Source of the DNA: a virus
DNA: 64,000 bases
Strand: one strand, 5' to 3'
IMG/VR virus record: IMGVR_UViG_3300012984_000568
Span: 1 to 64,000 of that record
The notes under the pieces are model-generated. The model saw only the letters and a program-made list of their open reading frames with translations, was not told the DNA's origin and made no database searches. Each line of letters opens with the position of its first letter. The stretch's first letter is position 1. Of the stretch, positions 15,336-34,859 are shown in pieces. Made by a program: the position numbers and the translations under genes.

Positions 15336-15653
15336 CGCGCCCGACGTAGTCCTCCGATCCGTGGGCACGGATCGCGAGGCGTCTGCGCCCCGGAAGAACG
15401 CCGTAAATGCGGGTCTCAAACTGTCCGCTGGGTGTCTTTCGAATCATCGCGATCGCGCGTTCGCGCGGCTCGTTCCCCTGTCCGCTCTTCTTCACTTCAA
15501 GCCCTCAGAAAAAACTAGAAACCCCTGACTAGGATTTAACCCCATCGGGTGATTCTGTGTTCCGGTTTCTTACAAAAACGACACAGCTGCATTTTGCCTT
15601 CCTAAAGGTGACGCCCGGCGGCATCTTATGCCGAGCCGGCATGATGTTCCATT

Positions 15654-15941
15654 GTGCGCGTGGTAAAGCCTGCTGCGCGCCGCGTCATGCTGCGCCTCGG
15701 TCTTCGCGTGATCGAAGAGCGCCAAAAAATTGACACGACCCAAGAGGAGCTCGCGGAGCGCCTCGGCTTATCGAGACGTCAGATGAACCGCGTCGAAGCG
15801 GGCGACGCCAACATCAGCTTGAGCACGCTGGTAGAACTCGCTGCGGCCCTCAGGGTCGAGATCGCGGAGCTGTTCACCTTGCCAGCCAAGAGCACCGCAC
15901 GCCGAACGGGGCGCCCGGTTCATAAGAAGTCGCGCACTTAG
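15654..15941 (+). CDS. XRE-family HTH transcriptional regulator
   Basis: TQEELAERLGLSRRQMNRVEAGDANISLSTLVELAAALRVEIAELF. Confidence 0.85.
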   Translation: MRVVKPAARRVMLRLGLRVIEERQKIDTTQEELAERLGLSRRQMNRVEAGDANISLSTLVELAAALRVEIAELFTLPAKSTARRTGRPVHKKSRT

Positions 15942-15970
15942 AGTCGTTCGTCGGACCGGCCGGGTAAGTA

Positions 15971-16020
15971 TTTTTGCGATTGTGATAATTGCGTTTGCAA
16001 TAATATCAGGAACGCGATAT
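15971..16020 (+). promoter_or_regulatory. Three tandem repressor operators / early promoter
   Basis: TTTTTGCGATTGTGATAA, TAATTGCGTTTGCAATAA, ATATCAGGAACGCGATAT directly upstream of the early operon. Confidence 0.7.
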
Positions 16021-16029
16021 CTGTAGGGC

Positions 16030-16242
16030 ATGACCAACGCCGCAATGACCGCCGCCGCTACCGAGATCGTCTCCTTCGCCGAGCTCCACGACGGCAAAGA
16101 GCGCGTCACGGAAATCGCCACCTACGGCTTCAAGGGTGAGCTGACGAACGAGCTCGGCTTCCCGGTCACGAACCCCGACGAACGCTTCGAGTTCCTCAAC
16201 GCCATCCAGGACCACGCGAAGTCGATCGCGGCTGGTTTCTGA
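16030..16242 (+). CDS. First early gene, hypothetical
   Basis: Follows the operators; typical codon usage. Confidence 0.65.
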   Translation: MTNAAMTAAATEIVSFAELHDGKERVTEIATYGFKGELTNELGFPVTNPDERFEFLNAIQDHAKSIAAGF

Positions 16243-16272
16243 GAGTCCCCGCGCGCCGCTCCTCGTTCCGAG

Positions 16273-16333
16273 GGGCTGCAGCGACTGAGCCCCGGCTGTC
16301 CCCCCCTCCGCCGCTGGTTCGTCACTGCAGCCC
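16273..16333 (+). ncRNA. Long hairpin with C7-rich loop (candidate sRNA)
   Basis: GGGCTGCAG/CTGCAGCCC, GAGCC/GGTTC and CGGC/GCCG stems; loop TGTCCCCCCCTCC. Confidence 0.45.
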
Positions 16334-16591
16334 ACTCGGGCCGAGCAGCCCGAGGGAAACACGACTGAGGGGCTCAACAGCCAACCAATCGAGACAGCCA
16401 ATGCGCACCAGACTCACAATCGAATCTGACCAACCAATCATGGTCTTGGTCATCCCACTGCCGCAACGTGTCGAGCGTCGAGCTCCGCGTTGCGTGATCG
16501 TCACCACGGGTTATTCCCGTGACTCCGAGCTGCCGCCGTCGGGCCCGGCGGCGAGCGTTCAACCGTTTCCTCCGCTCCGGAGGGCAGGGTA

Positions 16592-17035
16592 GTGTCCGCG
16601 GCGCAAGTTGTCGGTGCGCTGCTGCGCTTTCCCGGTGGCGAGCACATCCCGCAGCCGCCCAGCGAAGAGGCGCTCGTGGCGCAGGCGAAAGAGTGGGGCG
16701 AGCTCGCGGCGACGCATCATTTCGGCGCGCGTATCGCAATTGCGCGCGGTGACTACAGCGCCGCTGTGAACCACTTGGTTCACGAGCGCGGCAAGATCGA
16801 CCAGATGATCGCGATCATGAAAGAGGCGCGTGGCCTGCCCACTGGCAAGCGCGCGCTCGAGCTCGAAGCGCTGCAGCTGGTGCTCGGCGCGGTCAAAGAC
16901 GAGTTCGCTTTCCTGCCGGGCGTCACTGGCGACGACACGGCCAACACAATCGAGGCAGCGGCAGAGCGCGTCGACAATATCCAGGCGCGTCTACTGACTC
17001 TCGCCGAGGGCTTTCGTCACAACACCGAATCCTGA
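16592..17035 (+). CDS. Phage hypothetical protein
   Basis: 147 aa helical ORF in the early operon. Confidence 0.6.
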   Translation: MSAAQVVGALLRFPGGEHIPQPPSEEALVAQAKEWGELAATHHFGARIAIARGDYSAAVNHLVHERGKIDQMIAIMKEARGLPTGKRALELEALQLVLGAVKDEFAFLPGVTGDDTANTIEAAAERVDNIQARLLTLAEGFRHNTES

Positions 17036-17044
17036 CCGAACGAC

Positions 17045-17240
17045 GGAGCTCTGTTCGGACGACGTTCTGACTCACACACGCCATTTTCCTCGAATCCGGC
17101 GTCCCCAGCGTCGGTGGCGATAAGTGTGGGTCAGAGCGTCCTCCGAGCAGAGCTCCAATCGAACTGGGCGGACGGGGGTGCAGCTCCTGAGTCAGCTCCC
17201 CCTCGCTGGCTCTCCTAAGGAGCTGTCCCGCCTTCCGCTC
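17045..17240 (+). ncRNA. Two long intergenic hairpins with C-rich loops (candidate sRNAs / RNase III substrates)
   Basis: ~37 bp imperfect stem 17045-17156 with apical TCCCCAG loop; second stem 17166-17240 with loop TCCCCCTC. Confidence 0.5.
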
Positions 17241-17253
17241 GAATCGAGGAACC

Positions 17254-17436
17254 ATGCCAAAGCCGACCACGAGACGCCTGCTGCAACAGGCAAAGCACTG
17301 CATTGAGGAAGCGCTGGCCGTCGTCGAATCGGCGGAGCTCACAGACCACGCGCTCGACGACGCCGAGCATGCCCTCGAGTTGCTCGAGAGCCACATCATC
17401 CCAGCATTCAAGGGCGACTCTAAGCCGGTGGGCTAG
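17254..17436 (+). CDS. Phage hypothetical protein
   Basis: GAGGA RBS; helical 60 aa. Confidence 0.6.
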   Translation: MPKPTTRRLLQQAKHCIEEALAVVESAELTDHALDDAEHALELLESHIIPAFKGDSKPVG

Positions 17437-17649
17437 ATGCCGATTTACACCGTTCGCAATCACCGCAGCACGGTCGAGCTCGGCGACTTCGGTGATGCGC
17501 TGAAGCTCTACCGCAATCAACGCCTGCGACGCGCGGCGCCAGTGATCGGCACGAGTGACCCGCGTGGATGGTCACCCGAGCAGGACGCCGCAATCGACTC
17601 TGTGAACCACGAAACGAACAAGCGACACCCGGAGGGAAAGACCAAATGA
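17437..17649 (+). CDS. Phage hypothetical protein
   Basis: Abuts the upstream stop and overlaps the next start. Confidence 0.5.
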   Translation: MPIYTVRNHRSTVELGDFGDALKLYRNQRLRRAAPVIGTSDPRGWSPEQDAAIDSVNHETNKRHPEGKTK

Positions 17650-18038
17650 GCAGCTTTATCAAACCGTTCCTCGACGAAATCCGCGCCAAGCTCGACGACA
17701 TCGAGGCCGATGTAGAGACGCGCGCGGCCAACATCATGCGCGAACTCGAGGGCATCACGCAGGCGGCCAAGCGCGGCAAGAGCGCCACGAATCCGGCCAG
17801 CTCGAGCACTCGCGCCAAAGGCGAGAAGCGCACCCCCGAGGCGCTCGAGCGCGATACCGAGCACGTGTTCACCGTCATCAAGGCTCACCCGGGCGAGCGC
17901 ATCGAGAAGCTCGCGGTTCACGCGGCCATGTCGACGAAAGAGATGGTGCTTCCAATCAGGAAGCTGCGCGCTGCCAAGCGCATCACCGCTCAAGGCGCTC
18001 AGCGGGCCACCACCTACACCGCCAAGGGCGGAAAGTGA
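17646..18038 (+). CDS. Small DNA-binding protein (N-terminal coiled coil, basic linker, winged helix)
   Basis: GEKRTPEAL...IKAHPGERIEKLA...LPIRKLRAAKRITAQGAQRATTY. Confidence 0.65.
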   Translation: MSSFIKPFLDEIRAKLDDIEADVETRAANIMRELEGITQAAKRGKSATNPASSSTRAKGEKRTPEALERDTEHVFTVIKAHPGERIEKLAVHAAMSTKEMVLPIRKLRAAKRITAQGAQRATTYTAKGGK

Positions 18039-18219
18039 ACTACTCGCTCCAGTTCGCGCGCCCTGAGCAGCGCCTCAAATCGCCGGTTCAGCAACGCGCT
18101 CGAGCGTGGGACCGGCTGCTCGCGGCGTACCTCGTGGCCCACCCCGGCACGGCGGCGAGCGAGGTCAAGGTCATCGAGGTGGCGCTCTGGCAAGCCTCAC
18201 GACAGCAGGCTTCGCGCCG

Positions 18220-18513
18220 ATGAGCCAGCGCCGCGCCAAGGGCACGGTCGTTGCTGGCGTAATGCAGGCGCCCGCGAACGCTCAGCACTACCCGCACACC
18301 AAGCAGCTCGAGCTTGGCGCGGTGACGGTCGTCCTTCACTCGTACCCGAGCAAGCTGCCGACGCCTGTCGAAGCGGACGAACTCGTGCGCCGCCAGGCGT
18401 TCGACATGCCCATGGAGGAAGCGCGCCGGCTCGCTCCGTTTCTGTTCGAGCATGCGACGCTAACTATCGCGAAGCCAAGCGATGCCGCCTCCGACGCTCT
18501 GATGAAAGGCTGA
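18220..18513 (+). CDS. Phage hypothetical protein
   Basis: Coupled ATGA overlap with the small ORF 18035-18223. Confidence 0.5.
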   Translation: MSQRRAKGTVVAGVMQAPANAQHYPHTKQLELGAVTVVLHSYPSKLPTPVEADELVRRQAFDMPMEEARRLAPFLFEHATLTIAKPSDAASDALMKG

Positions 18514-18518
18514 TTTGA

Positions 18519-19163
18519 ATGACGACCCCCTCCCGTATTTCAATTTCTCGCACAGATTGGCTGCGCATCGGTAACGAGCTGTTTGGCGCTGACCCGCGCG
18601 CGTGGCGCTTCAAATGCCCTGCATGCGGGCACGAGCAAAGCCACAACGAGACCAAGGCTCGTCGTGCCGACATAGGCGATACCTCTGGATGGATCTACTT
18701 TGCTTGCGAAGGACGCCACAATCCGGGCGTCGGCTGCGACTGGTCGCTGGGCGGCCTATTCCAGATTCATACGCTCGAAGTGATCGAGGAATCCGGCCGC
18801 GCCGTAGCATGCATGCGGTTCGCTGACCCGCGCGCCGACGAACTGCTAACGGCAGCGACAGCCGCGCTGCCGCAGCACTTGACGACAGAAGCCAGCACCT
18901 GGGCTGAATTCGTGTGGCCGGACTGGGTGCCCGCTTGCGAGCGTGAACTCATCCAGGGATTTTGGTCTGACAAGTACGGTCGAGCTCCGCGTGATTACCT
19001 GAGCAACCTCAGGAACAACCGCGGCCCCATTTTTGGATCCGTCGTCACGCTACCGAAGCTCTGTCGCGAGAGCGAGAGTGTAACGGGGCGCTACATTCAC
19101 CGCTGGAACAACATCGGCGTTGTCGTTGATGAAGCAGGCGCTTCACAGGCGGTCAGCTTCTGA
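18519..19163 (+). CDS. VVA0879-like Cys-rich phage protein
   Basis: ELFGADPRAWRFKCPACGHEQS...CEGR...GCDWSLGGLFQIH. Confidence 0.65.
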   Translation: MTTPSRISISRTDWLRIGNELFGADPRAWRFKCPACGHEQSHNETKARRADIGDTSGWIYFACEGRHNPGVGCDWSLGGLFQIHTLEVIEESGRAVACMRFADPRADELLTAATAALPQHLTTEASTWAEFVWPDWVPACERELIQGFWSDKYGRAPRDYLSNLRNNRGPIFGSVVTLPKLCRESESVTGRYIHRWNNIGVVVDEAGASQAVSF

Positions 19164-21919: not shown

Positions 21920-22050
21920 CGAATCACGAGTCGTAGAGGTCCCGCTGACCCGGGGCAAGATCGCGATCATCGACGCTCGTCGGCTGCCGCGCTGTTGAAT
22001 TGGCATCGTGCCCTGTCCGGTGTCGACATGCGCATGCGACCAGGAACCGA
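21912..22050 (+). pseudogene. Truncated HNH/AP2 homing-endonuclease remnant
   Basis: MNSESRVVEVPLTRGKIAIIDA matches the typical HNH N-terminus (IPLTxGKxAIVD); stops after 28 codons. Confidence 0.5.
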
Positions 22051-22068
22051 ACAACTCACGGAGACCAC

Positions 22069-22323
22069 ATGAAAGAGATCATCGAGCCCGTTGCCGCCGC
22101 TGTGCACAACTCTTGGATGGCTGAGAAGCGCATGCAGGGAGTGGACGACAAGCGCTCCGAAACAGGCGAAAACCTGCTTGTCCCGTATGACCAGCTGAGC
22201 GAGGACGCCAAGGACCTGGACCGAGTGCTGGTCCGCTCAGTGATCGGCGCGCTGCTCGGTCTCGGCTACACGCTTCAGCGACCAACGTCGCCGAGCGCTC
22301 CCGTAGCGGCGGTGGTCAGATGA
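22069..22323 (+). CDS. RyR-repeat domain protein
   Basis: AAAVHNSWMAEKRMQG...LLVPYDQLSEDAKDLDR; GGAG RBS. Confidence 0.75.
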   Translation: MKEIIEPVAAAVHNSWMAEKRMQGVDDKRSETGENLLVPYDQLSEDAKDLDRVLVRSVIGALLGLGYTLQRPTSPSAPVAAVVR

Positions 22324-34740: not shown

Positions 34741-34767
34741 GAGTTCCCTCTTTCGTTGTGTGAATCG

Positions 34768-34854
34768 CCGAGACGCAGAAGACCGGCCTCAGTGCTCCGC
34801 CCAGTGGGAGGGTGGAACCAACCGGGCGGCAGAGGCCGTTCTTCTGCGTCTTGG
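34768..34854 (-). ncRNA. Long intergenic hairpin with C-rich loop
   Basis: AGACGCAGAAGA/TCTTCTGCGTCT, CGGCCTC/GAGGCCG and CCGCCCGGT/ACTGGGCGG stems; loop TTCCACCCTC. Confidence 0.5.
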
Positions 34855-34859
34855 TGGAG

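What the first reader, a model, noticed from the sequence alone, without database searches (positions are those of the whole stretch)
16243..17240. Family of long hairpin RNAs with C-rich (anti-Shine-Dalgarno-like) loops at the start of the early operon
Seen: three intergenic imperfect stems of ~20-40 bp with unrelated stem sequences but similar loops: TGTCCCCCCCTCC (16297-16309), TCCCCAG (17102-17108) and TCCCCCTC (17197-17204). A fourth lies in the late operon (34768-34854); all are on the sense strand. Known: C-rich loops are the mRNA-seeding elements of sRNAs such as RNAIII and cuckoo RNAs, long stems are RNase III substrates, and (from memory) the myxobacterial developmental sRNA Pxr depends on a C-run loop. 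Inference: a phage-encoded, transcript-embedded sRNA array that silences host GGAGG-type RBSs or mimics a host regulator. This is the best candidate for an undescribed system here.
Basis: partly seen in the sequence, partly recalled or inferred. Interest (0 to 1): 0.8.

Follow-up and report, generated by a model that had tools for sequence, protein, structure and literature searches.

The report
Conserved C-loop RNA hairpins between phage genes
Four very long RNA hairpins topped by cytosine-rich loops sit between genes of a soil prophage and are kept by selection in its relatives; they look like built-in mRNA control elements of the phage, but their function has not been tested.

Summary
HP1 (16255-16349), HP2 (17045-17156), HP3 (17159-17247) and HP4 (34766-34856, minus strand) are among the longest hairpin-type inverted repeats of the 84-kb provirus. 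Each is intergenic and starts 6-12 nt after a stop codon. Each has a G-free, C-rich apical loop on the sense strand. In three syntenic soil-metagenome relatives, HP1-3 keep their fold through 9-14 double compensatory changes each (at most 2 of 500 shuffles reach this). G-U pairs outnumber A-C mismatches 29 to 9 on the sense strand, which points to RNA. The HP1 loop (7-9 C, then UCC) does not vary; HP2 and HP3 loops vary but stay C-rich.

No Rfam family matches, and there are no U-tract terminators or own promoters. Mosaic joints lie right after HP2 and right after HP3.

The HP1 loop is complementary to the G-rich ribosome-binding site of the next gene. That site is its best target among 89 phage gene starts, and the best site in the whole of contig L003.

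My reading: these are cis-acting punctuation elements of the phage's own polycistronic mRNAs (processing, stability, translation control) with anti-Shine-Dalgarno-type loops. A host-directed sRNA array is not excluded and has no support. This is a new variant of a known kind. No RNA data exist, the host is unknown, and HP4 has no comparative data.

The parts
15960..16029 (+). AT-rich promoter/operator-like region in front of the first gene of the operon, with the palindrome ATTGCGTTTGCAAT and an extended -10-like TGTGATAAT
   Evidence: Read directly from the sequence. The consensus scan found no sigma-70 match, so the promoter is inferred only.
16030..16242 (+). 70-aa gene, first cistron, with no known family
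   Evidence: Third-position G+C is 0.87. No Pfam or PHROG hit and no DUF1127. Syntenic in L003 and L005.
16255..16349 (+). HP1: hairpin of about 37 pairs with apical loop 16297-16309 (7 C then UCC; 9 C in relatives)
   Evidence: 10 of 37 pairs have compensatory double changes, matched by 1 of 500 shuffles. The loop is invariant in L003 and L005, and two further metagenome contigs carry +CC in it.
16357..16445 (+). A/C-rich, G-poor stretch predicted to be largely unstructured, with CCAACCAATC twice; weakly resembles a Rho-loading (rut) site
   Evidence: C/G ratio is 1.7 here, 1.4 in L003 and 1.8 in L005. Direct repeats. It is not the most C-skewed stretch of the operon.
16463..16560 (+). Run of four short G+C-rich hairpins in the leader of the 147-aa gene
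   Evidence: Fold (z = -2.8). Conserved in L003 and poorly in L005.
16568..16594 (+). Ribosome-binding site GGAGGG (16579-16584) and GTG start (16592). The site is locked in a local 7-pair hairpin with UCCUCCG (16568-16574) and is also complementary to the HP1 loop.
   Evidence: It is the best HP1-loop target among 89 gene starts at -18.0 kcal/mol. In L003 it scores -26.9 and is the best site of the contig; in L005 it scores -24.5 and is second best.
16592..17035 (+). 147-aa all-helical protein gene, flanked by HP1 and HP2
   Evidence: 12 relatives at 59-77% identity. No Pfam, PHROG or PDB fold match.
17045..17156 (+). HP2: hairpin of about 47 pairs, starting 8-10 nt after the stop codon in all four homologues. 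The lower stem is nearly invariant and the apex is variable with a C-rich loop (17102-17108).
   Evidence: 14 of 34 pairs have compensatory changes, matched by 0 of 500 shuffles. The consensus fold is -58.2 on the plus strand against -41.6 on the minus strand.
17159..17247 (+). HP3: hairpin of about 33 pairs, 2-5 A-rich nt after HP2 and ending at the ribosome-binding site of the 60-aa gene; loop CUCCCCCU (17197-17204)
   Evidence: 9 of 32 pairs have compensatory changes, matched by 2 of 500 shuffles. Absent from L004 and from the X4 contig, both of which diverge right after HP2.
17254..17436 (+). 60-aa gene downstream of HP3
   Evidence: Third-position G+C is 0.80. In L005 only HP3, the ribosome-binding site and ATGCCAAAACC are shared; a different gene follows.
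34766..34856 (-). HP4: hairpin between two minus-strand late (tail-region) genes, 6 nt after the upstream stop codon; sense-strand loop is UUCCACCCU within CCACCCUCCCAC
   Evidence: No relatives were found, so there is no comparative support.

Best explanation
The hairpins are cis-acting structured elements of the phage's own polycistronic mRNAs, placed at gene-cassette boundaries.

Shown:
- They are sense-strand RNA structures under selection.
- They sit directly after stop codons.
- They have G-free, C-rich apical loops.
- They coincide with mosaic joints.

Inferred:
- Stems of 33-47 pairs are double-stranded RNase (RNase III-type) substrates and exonuclease barriers.
- HP2 would cap the 3' end of the 147-aa cistron and HP3 the 5' end of the next one, with a cut in or beside the 2-5 nt A-rich linker between them.
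- This would give each cassette its own stability and output.
- The exposed C-rich loops would act as anti-Shine-Dalgarno-type pairing modules.
- For HP1, the partner would be the G-rich ribosome-binding site and start of the very next gene (CGGAGGGYGGGGUG against a 9-C run followed by UCCG). Pairing would hold that gene's translation down, either within the same transcript or after the hairpin is cut out.

I put about 0.5 on the general reading (cis-acting mRNA elements for phage gene expression) and about 0.3-0.35 on the specific HP1-to-RBS pairing.
For: - Structure under selection: compensatory double changes in 10/37, 14/34 and 9/32 pairs, with only 3-4 sequences each. At most 2 of 500 shuffles and no slid register reach these values.
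- RNA of the sense strand: 29 G-U against 9 A-C cells (binomial p = 0.002). Folding the minus strand gives 1 and 2 G-U cells for HP1 and HP2 and a much poorer consensus for HP2.
- Position: all four are intergenic and start 6-12 nt after a stop codon. HP3 ends at the next ribosome-binding site.
- No U tract and no promoter of their own.
- The hairpin regions are as conserved as the coding DNA beside them: HP1 is 84% and 74% identical, the 147-aa gene 72% and 68%.
- Mosaic joints: L004 and the X4 contig diverge right after HP2. L005 diverges right after HP3, the ribosome-binding site and four codons.
- HP1 loop against the next gene's ribosome-binding site: rank 1 of 89 gene starts, best site of contig L003 and second best of L005. 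Both partners are conserved.
- Established background: 6C sRNA pairs with G-rich ribosome-binding sites through C-rich loops and without a chaperone (PMC6486639). C-rich loops are a general signature of RBS-pairing RNAs (PMC4615179).
Against: - No RNA data of any kind. Processing, stability effects and pairing are all inferred.
- In the window itself the HP1-RBS duplex (-18.0) is not the best site in the operon; the top is -22.4, inside the HP3 stem.
- That ribosome-binding site is already closed by a local hairpin.
- Any CCUCC-like loop pairs with any strong Shine-Dalgarno sequence, so the complementarity is partly trivial.
- The X2 relative has the longer C run but apparently the window's RBS spacing, so loop length and RBS do not covary strictly.
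- HP2, HP3 and HP4 loops have no specific cis partner.
- RNase III processing does not explain why the loops are C-rich.
- The G-U against A-C count is biased, because the consensus was derived from the plus strand, and HP3 shows no strand asymmetry.
- The comparative set is small and comes from one clade.
Confidence: 0.5

Rival explanations
1. Transcript-embedded sRNA array. The hairpins are cut out of the operon mRNA and their C-rich loops pair in trans with GGAGG-type ribosome-binding sites of host mRNAs, or of many phage mRNAs, to silence them.
For: - Loops are conserved or stay C-rich while stems covary.
- Loops carry anti-SD cores: CCUCC in HP1 and HP4.
- Precedents exist for operon-embedded C-loop sRNAs. 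[quoted passage not shown] Cuckoo hairpins have variable stems and a constant loop (PMC4615179). 6C is another case (PMC6486639).
- From my own knowledge, DicF of the E. coli Qin prophage is likewise processed out of an operon transcript.
Against: - No promoter or terminator of their own and no Rfam match.
- The stems are 2-4 times longer than any cuckoo, 6C or RNAIII module.
- HP2 loops vary in sequence between relatives, which argues against a defined seed.
- HP4 sits deep inside a tail-gene operon.
- Host and host targets are unknown, so nothing could be tested.
- The only specific target found is phage-encoded and adjacent.
Confidence: 0.15
2. Transcription-level control. The hairpins are pause, attenuation or antitermination signals, with the C-rich loops recognised by Rho or by a phage or host protein. 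This would be comparable to nutR/tR1 after the first gene of the lambda rightward operon, or to the put RNAs of HK022.
For: - HP1 lies just after the first small gene of the operon.
- It is followed by an A/C-rich, G-poor stretch in all three relatives, with C/G of 1.4-1.8.
- A 349-nt untranslated spacer inside an operon is an obvious Rho entry point.
- Similar loops on unrelated stems suggest a shared ligand.
- From my own knowledge, Rho prefers C-rich RNA.
Against: - No U tracts, and hairpins without U tracts did not terminate purified mycobacterial RNA polymerase (PMC3993855).
- No N-, Q- or NusG-like protein was found among 30 proteins scanned.
- The C-skewed stretch is not the strongest in the operon.
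- HP4 lies between tail genes far from any operon start, where termination would be harmful.
- Nut and put elements are much shorter.
Confidence: 0.17
3. Plain stability or processing stems that double as recombination boundaries. The loops have no partner and are C-rich only because G-free, A/U-poor loops stay unpaired in G+C-rich RNA and resist A/U-preferring endonucleases.
For: - Position after stop codons and very long stems.
- Mosaic joints exactly at the HP2 and HP3 borders.
- HP2 loops vary freely in sequence and length.
- RNase E prefers AU-rich sites even in a 69% G+C organism (PMC8034643).
Against: - The 13-nt HP1 loop is invariant in five sequences while neighbouring stem positions change.
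- Large loops cost stability, so a stem kept only for stability would be expected to carry a small tetraloop.
- CCCCCTC is otherwise rare: 3 on the plus strand of 84 kb, 2 of them in these loops.
Confidence: 0.13
4. DNA-level element: cruciform or single-strand hairpins serving as a replication, packaging, partition or recombination site.
For: They are long inverted repeats next to a ParB-like gene. Mosaic joints lie beside them. Individual minus-strand folds are about as stable as plus-strand folds.
Against: - Excess of G-U over A-C pairs on the sense strand, and a poorer minus-strand consensus for HP2.
- The C-rich loop is always on the sense strand, even though HP4 lies on the opposite DNA strand.
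- The four stems are unrelated in sequence, so there is no common protein-binding site.
Confidence: 0.05

Closest known systems
CcsR / 'cuckoo' RNAs of Alphaproteobacteria (PMC4615179, PMC8034643)
   Same: Several adjacent hairpins with unrelated, variable stems and a shared C-rich, anti-Shine-Dalgarno-like loop. They are co-transcribed with a small upstream ORF (71 aa there, 70 aa here) and embedded in the mRNA rather than free-standing.
   Different: Cuckoo hairpins are 24-50 nt with the exact loop motif CCUCCUCCC. Here the hairpins are 90-112 nt with loops of 7-9 C plus UCC, UCCCC, or CUCCCCCU. There is no DUF1127 protein and no Rfam hit. The host has a one-piece tmRNA. The elements are spread between coding genes, not tandem in a UTR.
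6C sRNA of high-G+C Gram-positive bacteria (PMC6486639)
   Same: Loops with runs of six or more C that pair with G-rich ribosome-binding sites through G-C pairs, without needing a chaperone. The setting is G+C-rich, where G and C runs are otherwise rare.
   Different: 6C is a short, free-standing, conserved chromosomal sRNA. There is no sequence or structure match here, the stems are several times longer, and the location is inside phage operons.
RNase III processing signals in polycistronic phage mRNAs (T7 early region; lambda sib and the N leader) - from my own knowledge
   Same: Long, imperfect intergenic hairpins in a phage polycistronic transcript, placed between cistrons. After cutting, their halves protect the 3' or 5' ends of the neighbouring messages.
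   Different: The T7 sites are shorter, have a characteristic internal loop, and show no conserved C-rich apical loop. Cleavage here is untested and the host's RNases are unknown.
P1/P7 C4 antisense RNA and P4 CI RNA (Rfam RF01695) - from my own knowledge
   Same: A structured RNA made from the same operon transcript as its target, with loops complementary to a downstream ribosome-binding site in that operon. This matches the HP1 loop and the ribosome-binding site of the 147-aa gene.
   Different: No match to the C4 model. C4 is about 77 nt and is cut out by RNase P. Its target sites are specific sequences, not a generic G-rich Shine-Dalgarno site.
Conserved stem-loops at gene-cassette junctions of phage early regions (PeSL cassettes of T4-type phages; hairpins in Mu-like early operons, as noted in earlier findings e1-234564 and e1-399982)
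   Same: Conserved intergenic hairpins that sit exactly where neighbouring genes are exchanged between related phages.
   Different: Those are short hairpins of about 30-50 nt, often repeated copies of one sequence. Here there are four unrelated, much longer stems that share only loop composition.

Membership tests
Cuckoo / CcsR RNA family | 2-4 adjacent hairpins, each 24-50 nt | tested here: not met
   The hairpins are 95, 112, 89 and 91 nt. The definition is from PMC4615179.
Cuckoo / CcsR RNA family | Loop motif CCUCCUCCC in every hairpin loop | tested here: not met
   The loops are 7-9 C plus UCC, UCCCCA, CUCCCCCU and UUCCACCCU.
Cuckoo / CcsR RNA family | Neighbouring DUF1127 small protein, alphaproteobacterial host, and a match to the Rfam models | tested here: not met
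   No DUF1127 even at E up to 10. The tmRNA is one-piece. No Rfam hit at E up to 10.
6C RNA (Rfam 6C) | Match to the family covariance model | tested here: not met
   Rfam found only the tRNA at gathering score. At E up to 10 over 15500-18700 it found only microRNA-precursor look-alikes.
6C RNA (Rfam 6C) | Loops with at least six consecutive C | tested here: inconclusive
   HP1 has 7-9 C. The HP2 homologues have 4-7, HP3 has 5 and HP4 has 3.
Pxr sRNA of myxobacteria | Match to the Rfam Pxr model (three stem-loops, conserved SL1 and SL2) | tested here: not met
   No hit. The Pxr paper I read does not mention a C-rich loop.
P1/P7 C4 - P4 CI antisense RNA | Match to Rfam C4 | tested here: not met
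   No hit.
P1/P7 C4 - P4 CI antisense RNA | Loop complementary to a ribosome-binding site further down the same operon | tested here: met
   For HP1 only: rank 1 of 89 gene starts, and best or second-best site in L003 and L005.
RNase III processing signal of phage polycistronic mRNA | Intercistronic hairpin with at least about 20 bp of near-continuous duplex | tested here: met
   33-47 pairs each, all between cistrons.
RNase III processing signal of phage polycistronic mRNA | Cleavage by RNase III in vivo or in vitro | not testable with these tools
   No RNA run is listed for this DNA, and the host is unknown.
Intrinsic (Rho-independent) terminator | G+C-rich hairpin followed directly by a U tract | tested here: not met
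   None of the four is followed by a T run.
Lambdoid nut / boxB antitermination site | Short boxB stem-loop with a boxA partner and an arginine-rich N-type protein | tested here: inconclusive
   The stems are 33-47 pairs rather than about 5. No N- or Q-like family was found among 30 proteins scanned, but N proteins are often missed by profile searches.

The most novel reading that the evidence does not exclude
The phage carries pre-sRNA-like hairpins inside its operons. A double-strand RNase cuts them out, much as microRNA precursors are cut, and the released poly-C-loop hairpins bind G-rich ribosome-binding sites genome-wide. This would shut off host translation, or time phage translation, from within ordinary mRNAs.
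Probability: 0.12. Interest if true: 0.8.

Novelty: new variant of a known kind. Interest (0 to 1): 0.5.

Why it matters
If the loops really pair with ribosome-binding sites, this would be a phage-borne version of the C-rich-loop regulators known from cellular sRNAs (6C, cuckoo/CcsR, RNAIII). It would be built into the spacers of polycistronic mRNAs on unusually long stems. It would also link three things usually treated apart: mRNA processing, translational control, and the modular exchange of phage gene cassettes. The three early-operon motifs are absent from Rfam and have enough covariation to seed new RNA families. The practical limits are that the clade is small, known only from soil metagenomes, and has no identified host.

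Tried and rejected
- **Collection scans:**
  - Both genome-contig scans (147-aa profile, ParB-like protein) found nothing.
  - Viral-contig scans with the 70-aa, 147-aa, ParB-like and 215-aa proteins found no true relative.
  - L002, a 31% local match, has no comparable hairpins.
  - A DNA-pattern scan with the conserved HP1 lower stem gave 17 hits, all unrelated chance matches.
- **Phage collection:** blastn found no match.
- **Sequencing runs:** no RNA holder is listed. Laying contigs of three soil runs gave two more relatives, but the difference table was cut, so only a few hairpin positions could be read.
- **Sliding-window folding:**
  - Pair counts and MFE over the whole provirus do not discriminate in 63% G+C DNA.
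  - Other apparent 'gaps' with stable folds had z-scores between -2.3 and +0.5, none comparable to HP2-HP4.
  - A candidate fifth C-loop hairpin at 18478-18572 is not significant (z = -0.5). Its CCCCCTCC lies in the first codons of a real gene.
- **Purine-rich tract near 75,240:** it looked like a loop target but is the antisense of a Pro/Ser-rich coding linker.
- **147-aa protein:** the structure model is a helical bundle with mean pLDDT 71 and no informative PDB match.
- **Host:** the protein atlas on the integrase gave mixed phyla. The genome search cannot draw relatives for a virus record.
- **Other loop partners:** pairing of the HP2 loop with the G run in the HP3 stem, and a pseudoknot between the HP1 loop and the downstream GAGGGG, were considered and dropped. 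They are not conserved or are geometrically strained.
Full report
**Setting**

The window is the first 64 kb of an 84,372-bp IMG/VR provirus record from a soil metagenome, about 63% G+C. The record ends inside a one-piece tmRNA gene. Integrases converge near 10 kb, so the prophage probably occupies about 10-84 kb.

Codon-position G+C shows a rightward operon from about 14 to 29 kb. It includes two HTH regulators, a ParB-like protein and a Lar-like protein. Almost everything else is leftward, including tail genes around 35 kb.

The finding lies at the head of the rightward operon. The order there is:
- an AT-rich, palindrome-bearing region (15960-16029)
- a 70-aa gene (16030-16242)
- a 349-nt non-coding spacer
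- a 147-aa gene (16592-17035)
- a 218-nt spacer
- a 60-aa gene (17254-17436)

**The observation**

| Hairpin | Coordinates | Pairs | Energy / z-score |
|---|---|---|---|
| HP1 | 16255-16349 | about 37 | z = -2.9 |
| HP2 | 17045-17156 | about 47 | -78.2 kcal/mol, z = -10.2 |
| HP3 | 17159-17247 | about 33 | z = -5.3 |
| HP4 | 34766-34856 | about 33 | z = -5.7 (plus), -7.9 (minus) |

- HP4 lies between two minus-strand genes. On that sense strand its loop is C-rich: UUCCACCCU within CCACCCUCCCAC.
- HP1, HP3 and HP4 are three of the five longest hairpin-type inverted repeats in the window. HP2 was missed there only because its arms are far apart.
- The four stems are unrelated in sequence.
- The apical loops hold about 22 C, 8 U, 1-2 A and no G.
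- CCCCCTC occurs just three times on the plus strand of the 84 kb, twice in these loops.
- Each hairpin starts 6-12 nt after a stop codon.
- None is followed by a T run, and no promoter-like site precedes any of them.
- Simple sliding-window folding does not single these hairpins out. G+C-rich DNA folds everywhere, and other 'stable' spacers have unremarkable z-scores.

**Relatives**

The 147-aa protein has 12 relatives at 59-77% identity. One metagenome scan returned three syntenic contigs, L003, L004 and L005. Laying contigs of other soil runs showed two more relatives, at roughly 95% and 90% identity.

- **Fold:** HP1, HP2 and HP3 are present and fold the same way in these relatives.
- **Covariation:**
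  - HP1 has compensatory double changes in 10 of 37 pairs, HP2 in 14 of 34 and HP3 in 9 of 32.
  - 90-98% of cells are paired.
  - At most 2 of 500 column shuffles reach the observed values.
  - Registers slid by 1-3 columns give at most 3 such pairs.
- **Conservation:** the hairpin DNA is as conserved as the coding DNA beside it.
- **Strand:** on the sense strand there are 29 G-U cells against 9 A-C cells. The minus-strand consensus of HP2 is far weaker, at -41.6 against -58.2. This favours a sense-strand RNA, with two cautions: the consensus was derived on that strand, and HP3 is symmetric.

**Loops in relatives**

- **HP1:** the loop is a C run followed by UCC in every sequence. It has 7 C here and 9 C in L003, L005 and both laid contigs.
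- **HP2:** the lower stem is nearly invariant. The apex changes freely and stays C-rich and almost G-free: UCCCCA, AAUCCCCCACC, UGUCCCCCCCAUC and CCAUCAUCACUCC.
- **HP3:** the loop is CUCCCCCU in two sequences and CUCACCU in the third.

The loops are under some constraint beyond being unpaired.

**Known families**

Rfam finds only the tRNA at gathering score. At E up to 10 on 15500-18700 it reports only microRNA-precursor look-alikes for HP2 and nothing for Pxr, cuckoo-type, 6C or C4 models. The three neighbouring proteins have no Pfam or PHROG family and no DUF1127. The 147-aa protein models as a helical bundle with no informative PDB match. No antiterminator-like family was found among 30 proteins scanned.

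**Two further observations that shape the reading**

1. **The hairpins mark mosaic joints.**
   - L004 and the 12.5-kb X4 contig are homologous up to the last base of HP2 and unrelated after it.
   - L005 shares HP3, the ribosome-binding site and ATGCCAAAACC, and then continues with a different gene.
   - HP2 and HP3 are separated by only 2-5 A-rich nucleotides: AA, AAAG or CAAAA.
   - This looks like a 3' cap for one cassette abutting a 5' cap for the next.

2. **The HP1 loop is complementary to the unusually G-rich ribosome-binding site and start of the next gene.**
   - That site reads CGGAGGGCAGGG here and CGGAGGGYGGGGUG in L003 and L005.
   - Among 89 predicted gene starts of the provirus it is the best HP1-loop target, at -18.0 kcal/mol against a mean of -5.4 (sd 3.9).
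   - In L003 it is the best site of the whole contig, at -26.9 against -18.5 for the next. In L005 it is second best, at -24.5.
   - Cautions:
     - In the window itself stronger sites exist, though they lie inside stems.
     - The ribosome-binding site is also closed by a local 7-pair hairpin.
     - A CCUCC-type loop will match any strong Shine-Dalgarno site.
   - The loops of HP2, HP3 and HP4 have no specific cis partner.

**Interpretation**

The shown facts are:
- selected sense-strand RNA hairpins
- position after stop codons
- no transcription signals of their own
- C-rich loops
- cassette boundaries

These fit best with cis-acting punctuation elements of the phage's own polycistronic mRNAs. 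Duplexes of 33-47 pairs are natural substrates for a double-strand RNase and barriers to exonucleases. The HP2-linker-HP3 layout suggests a cut that leaves each cistron with a protective stem. The loops behave like anti-Shine-Dalgarno modules, as in 6C, where G-C pairing with G-rich ribosome-binding sites needs no chaperone (PMC6486639). The best candidate partner is the next phage gene.

I give about 0.5 to this general reading and about a third to the specific HP1-RBS pairing.

The rival readings are:
[quoted passage not shown] There is no direct support here.
- **Transcriptional control through Rho or a loop-binding factor (0.17).** The A/C-rich stretch after HP1 supports it. The position of HP4 and the lack of U tracts count against it, and hairpins without U tracts did not terminate a purified actinobacterial polymerase (PMC3993855).
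- **Stems for stability only, with incidental loops (0.13).**
- **A DNA-level role (0.05).**

**Novelty and verdict**

Every ingredient has a precedent: intercistronic processing hairpins, C-rich RBS-pairing loops, operon-embedded regulatory RNAs, and hairpins at phage module borders. The combination does not match any described family and fails the defining tests for cuckoo, 6C, C4, Pxr and intrinsic terminators. That combination is very long unrelated stems, all topped by poly-C-type loops on the sense strand of both operons.

I class it as a new variant of a known kind. It is of moderate interest, limited by the small uncultivated clade, the unknown host and the absence of any RNA data.

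Noticed in passing
window 17155-17158 and 17247-17265; L004:716 onward; L005:3516-3530: Mosaic joints coincide with the hairpin borders. L004 and a 12.5-kb metagenome contig diverge right after HP2. L005 keeps HP3, the ribosome-binding site and the first four codons (MPKP), then encodes a different protein.
   Followed up: partly
window 15960-16029: AT-rich region in a 63% G+C genome, with the palindrome ATTGCGTTTGCAAT, repeated TTGCG motifs and an extended -10-like TGTGATAAT. It is probably the operator and promoter of the operon, downstream of two HTH regulator genes on the same strand.
   Followed up: no
window 16372-16439: The A/C-rich spacer after HP1 holds CCAACCAATC twice, 49 nt apart, and a 21-nt imperfect direct repeat. 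The first copy is conserved in L003.
   Followed up: partly
window 18519-18540: The third plus-strand copy of CCCCCTCC lies in codons 3-5 of a 214-aa gene (phrog_32023), not in a significant hairpin.
   Followed up: partly
L006:11225-11275 (provirus about 75,225-75,275), minus strand: A 45-nt pyrimidine-only tract (CCCUCUCCUCUCCACUCCCCCUCCUCUCC) lies inside a 346-aa minus-strand ORF, where it encodes a Pro/Ser/Leu-rich linker. Its complement is the strongest purine tract in the record.
   Followed up: partly
L007:252-372 (record end), minus strand: The 3' third of a one-piece tmRNA (Rfam positions 264-374, 46.2 bits), cut by the end of the record. It is probably the attachment-site end of the prophage rather than a phage gene.
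   Followed up: partly
L006:8816-8861 (provirus about 72,816-72,861): A 19-bp near-perfect hairpin (z = -5.4 on the minus strand) inside the 490-aa ATPase-like gene.
   Followed up: no
window 22000-22323: A 107-aa early-operon protein with a RyR domain (Pfam PF02026, E = 9.5e-11). This domain is found sporadically in phages and its role there is unknown.
   Followed up: no
L005:2323-2526: Relative L005 has about 200 extra non-coding bases between the 70-aa gene and HP1, with no significant fold. The spacer length is therefore flexible upstream of HP1.
   Followed up: partly
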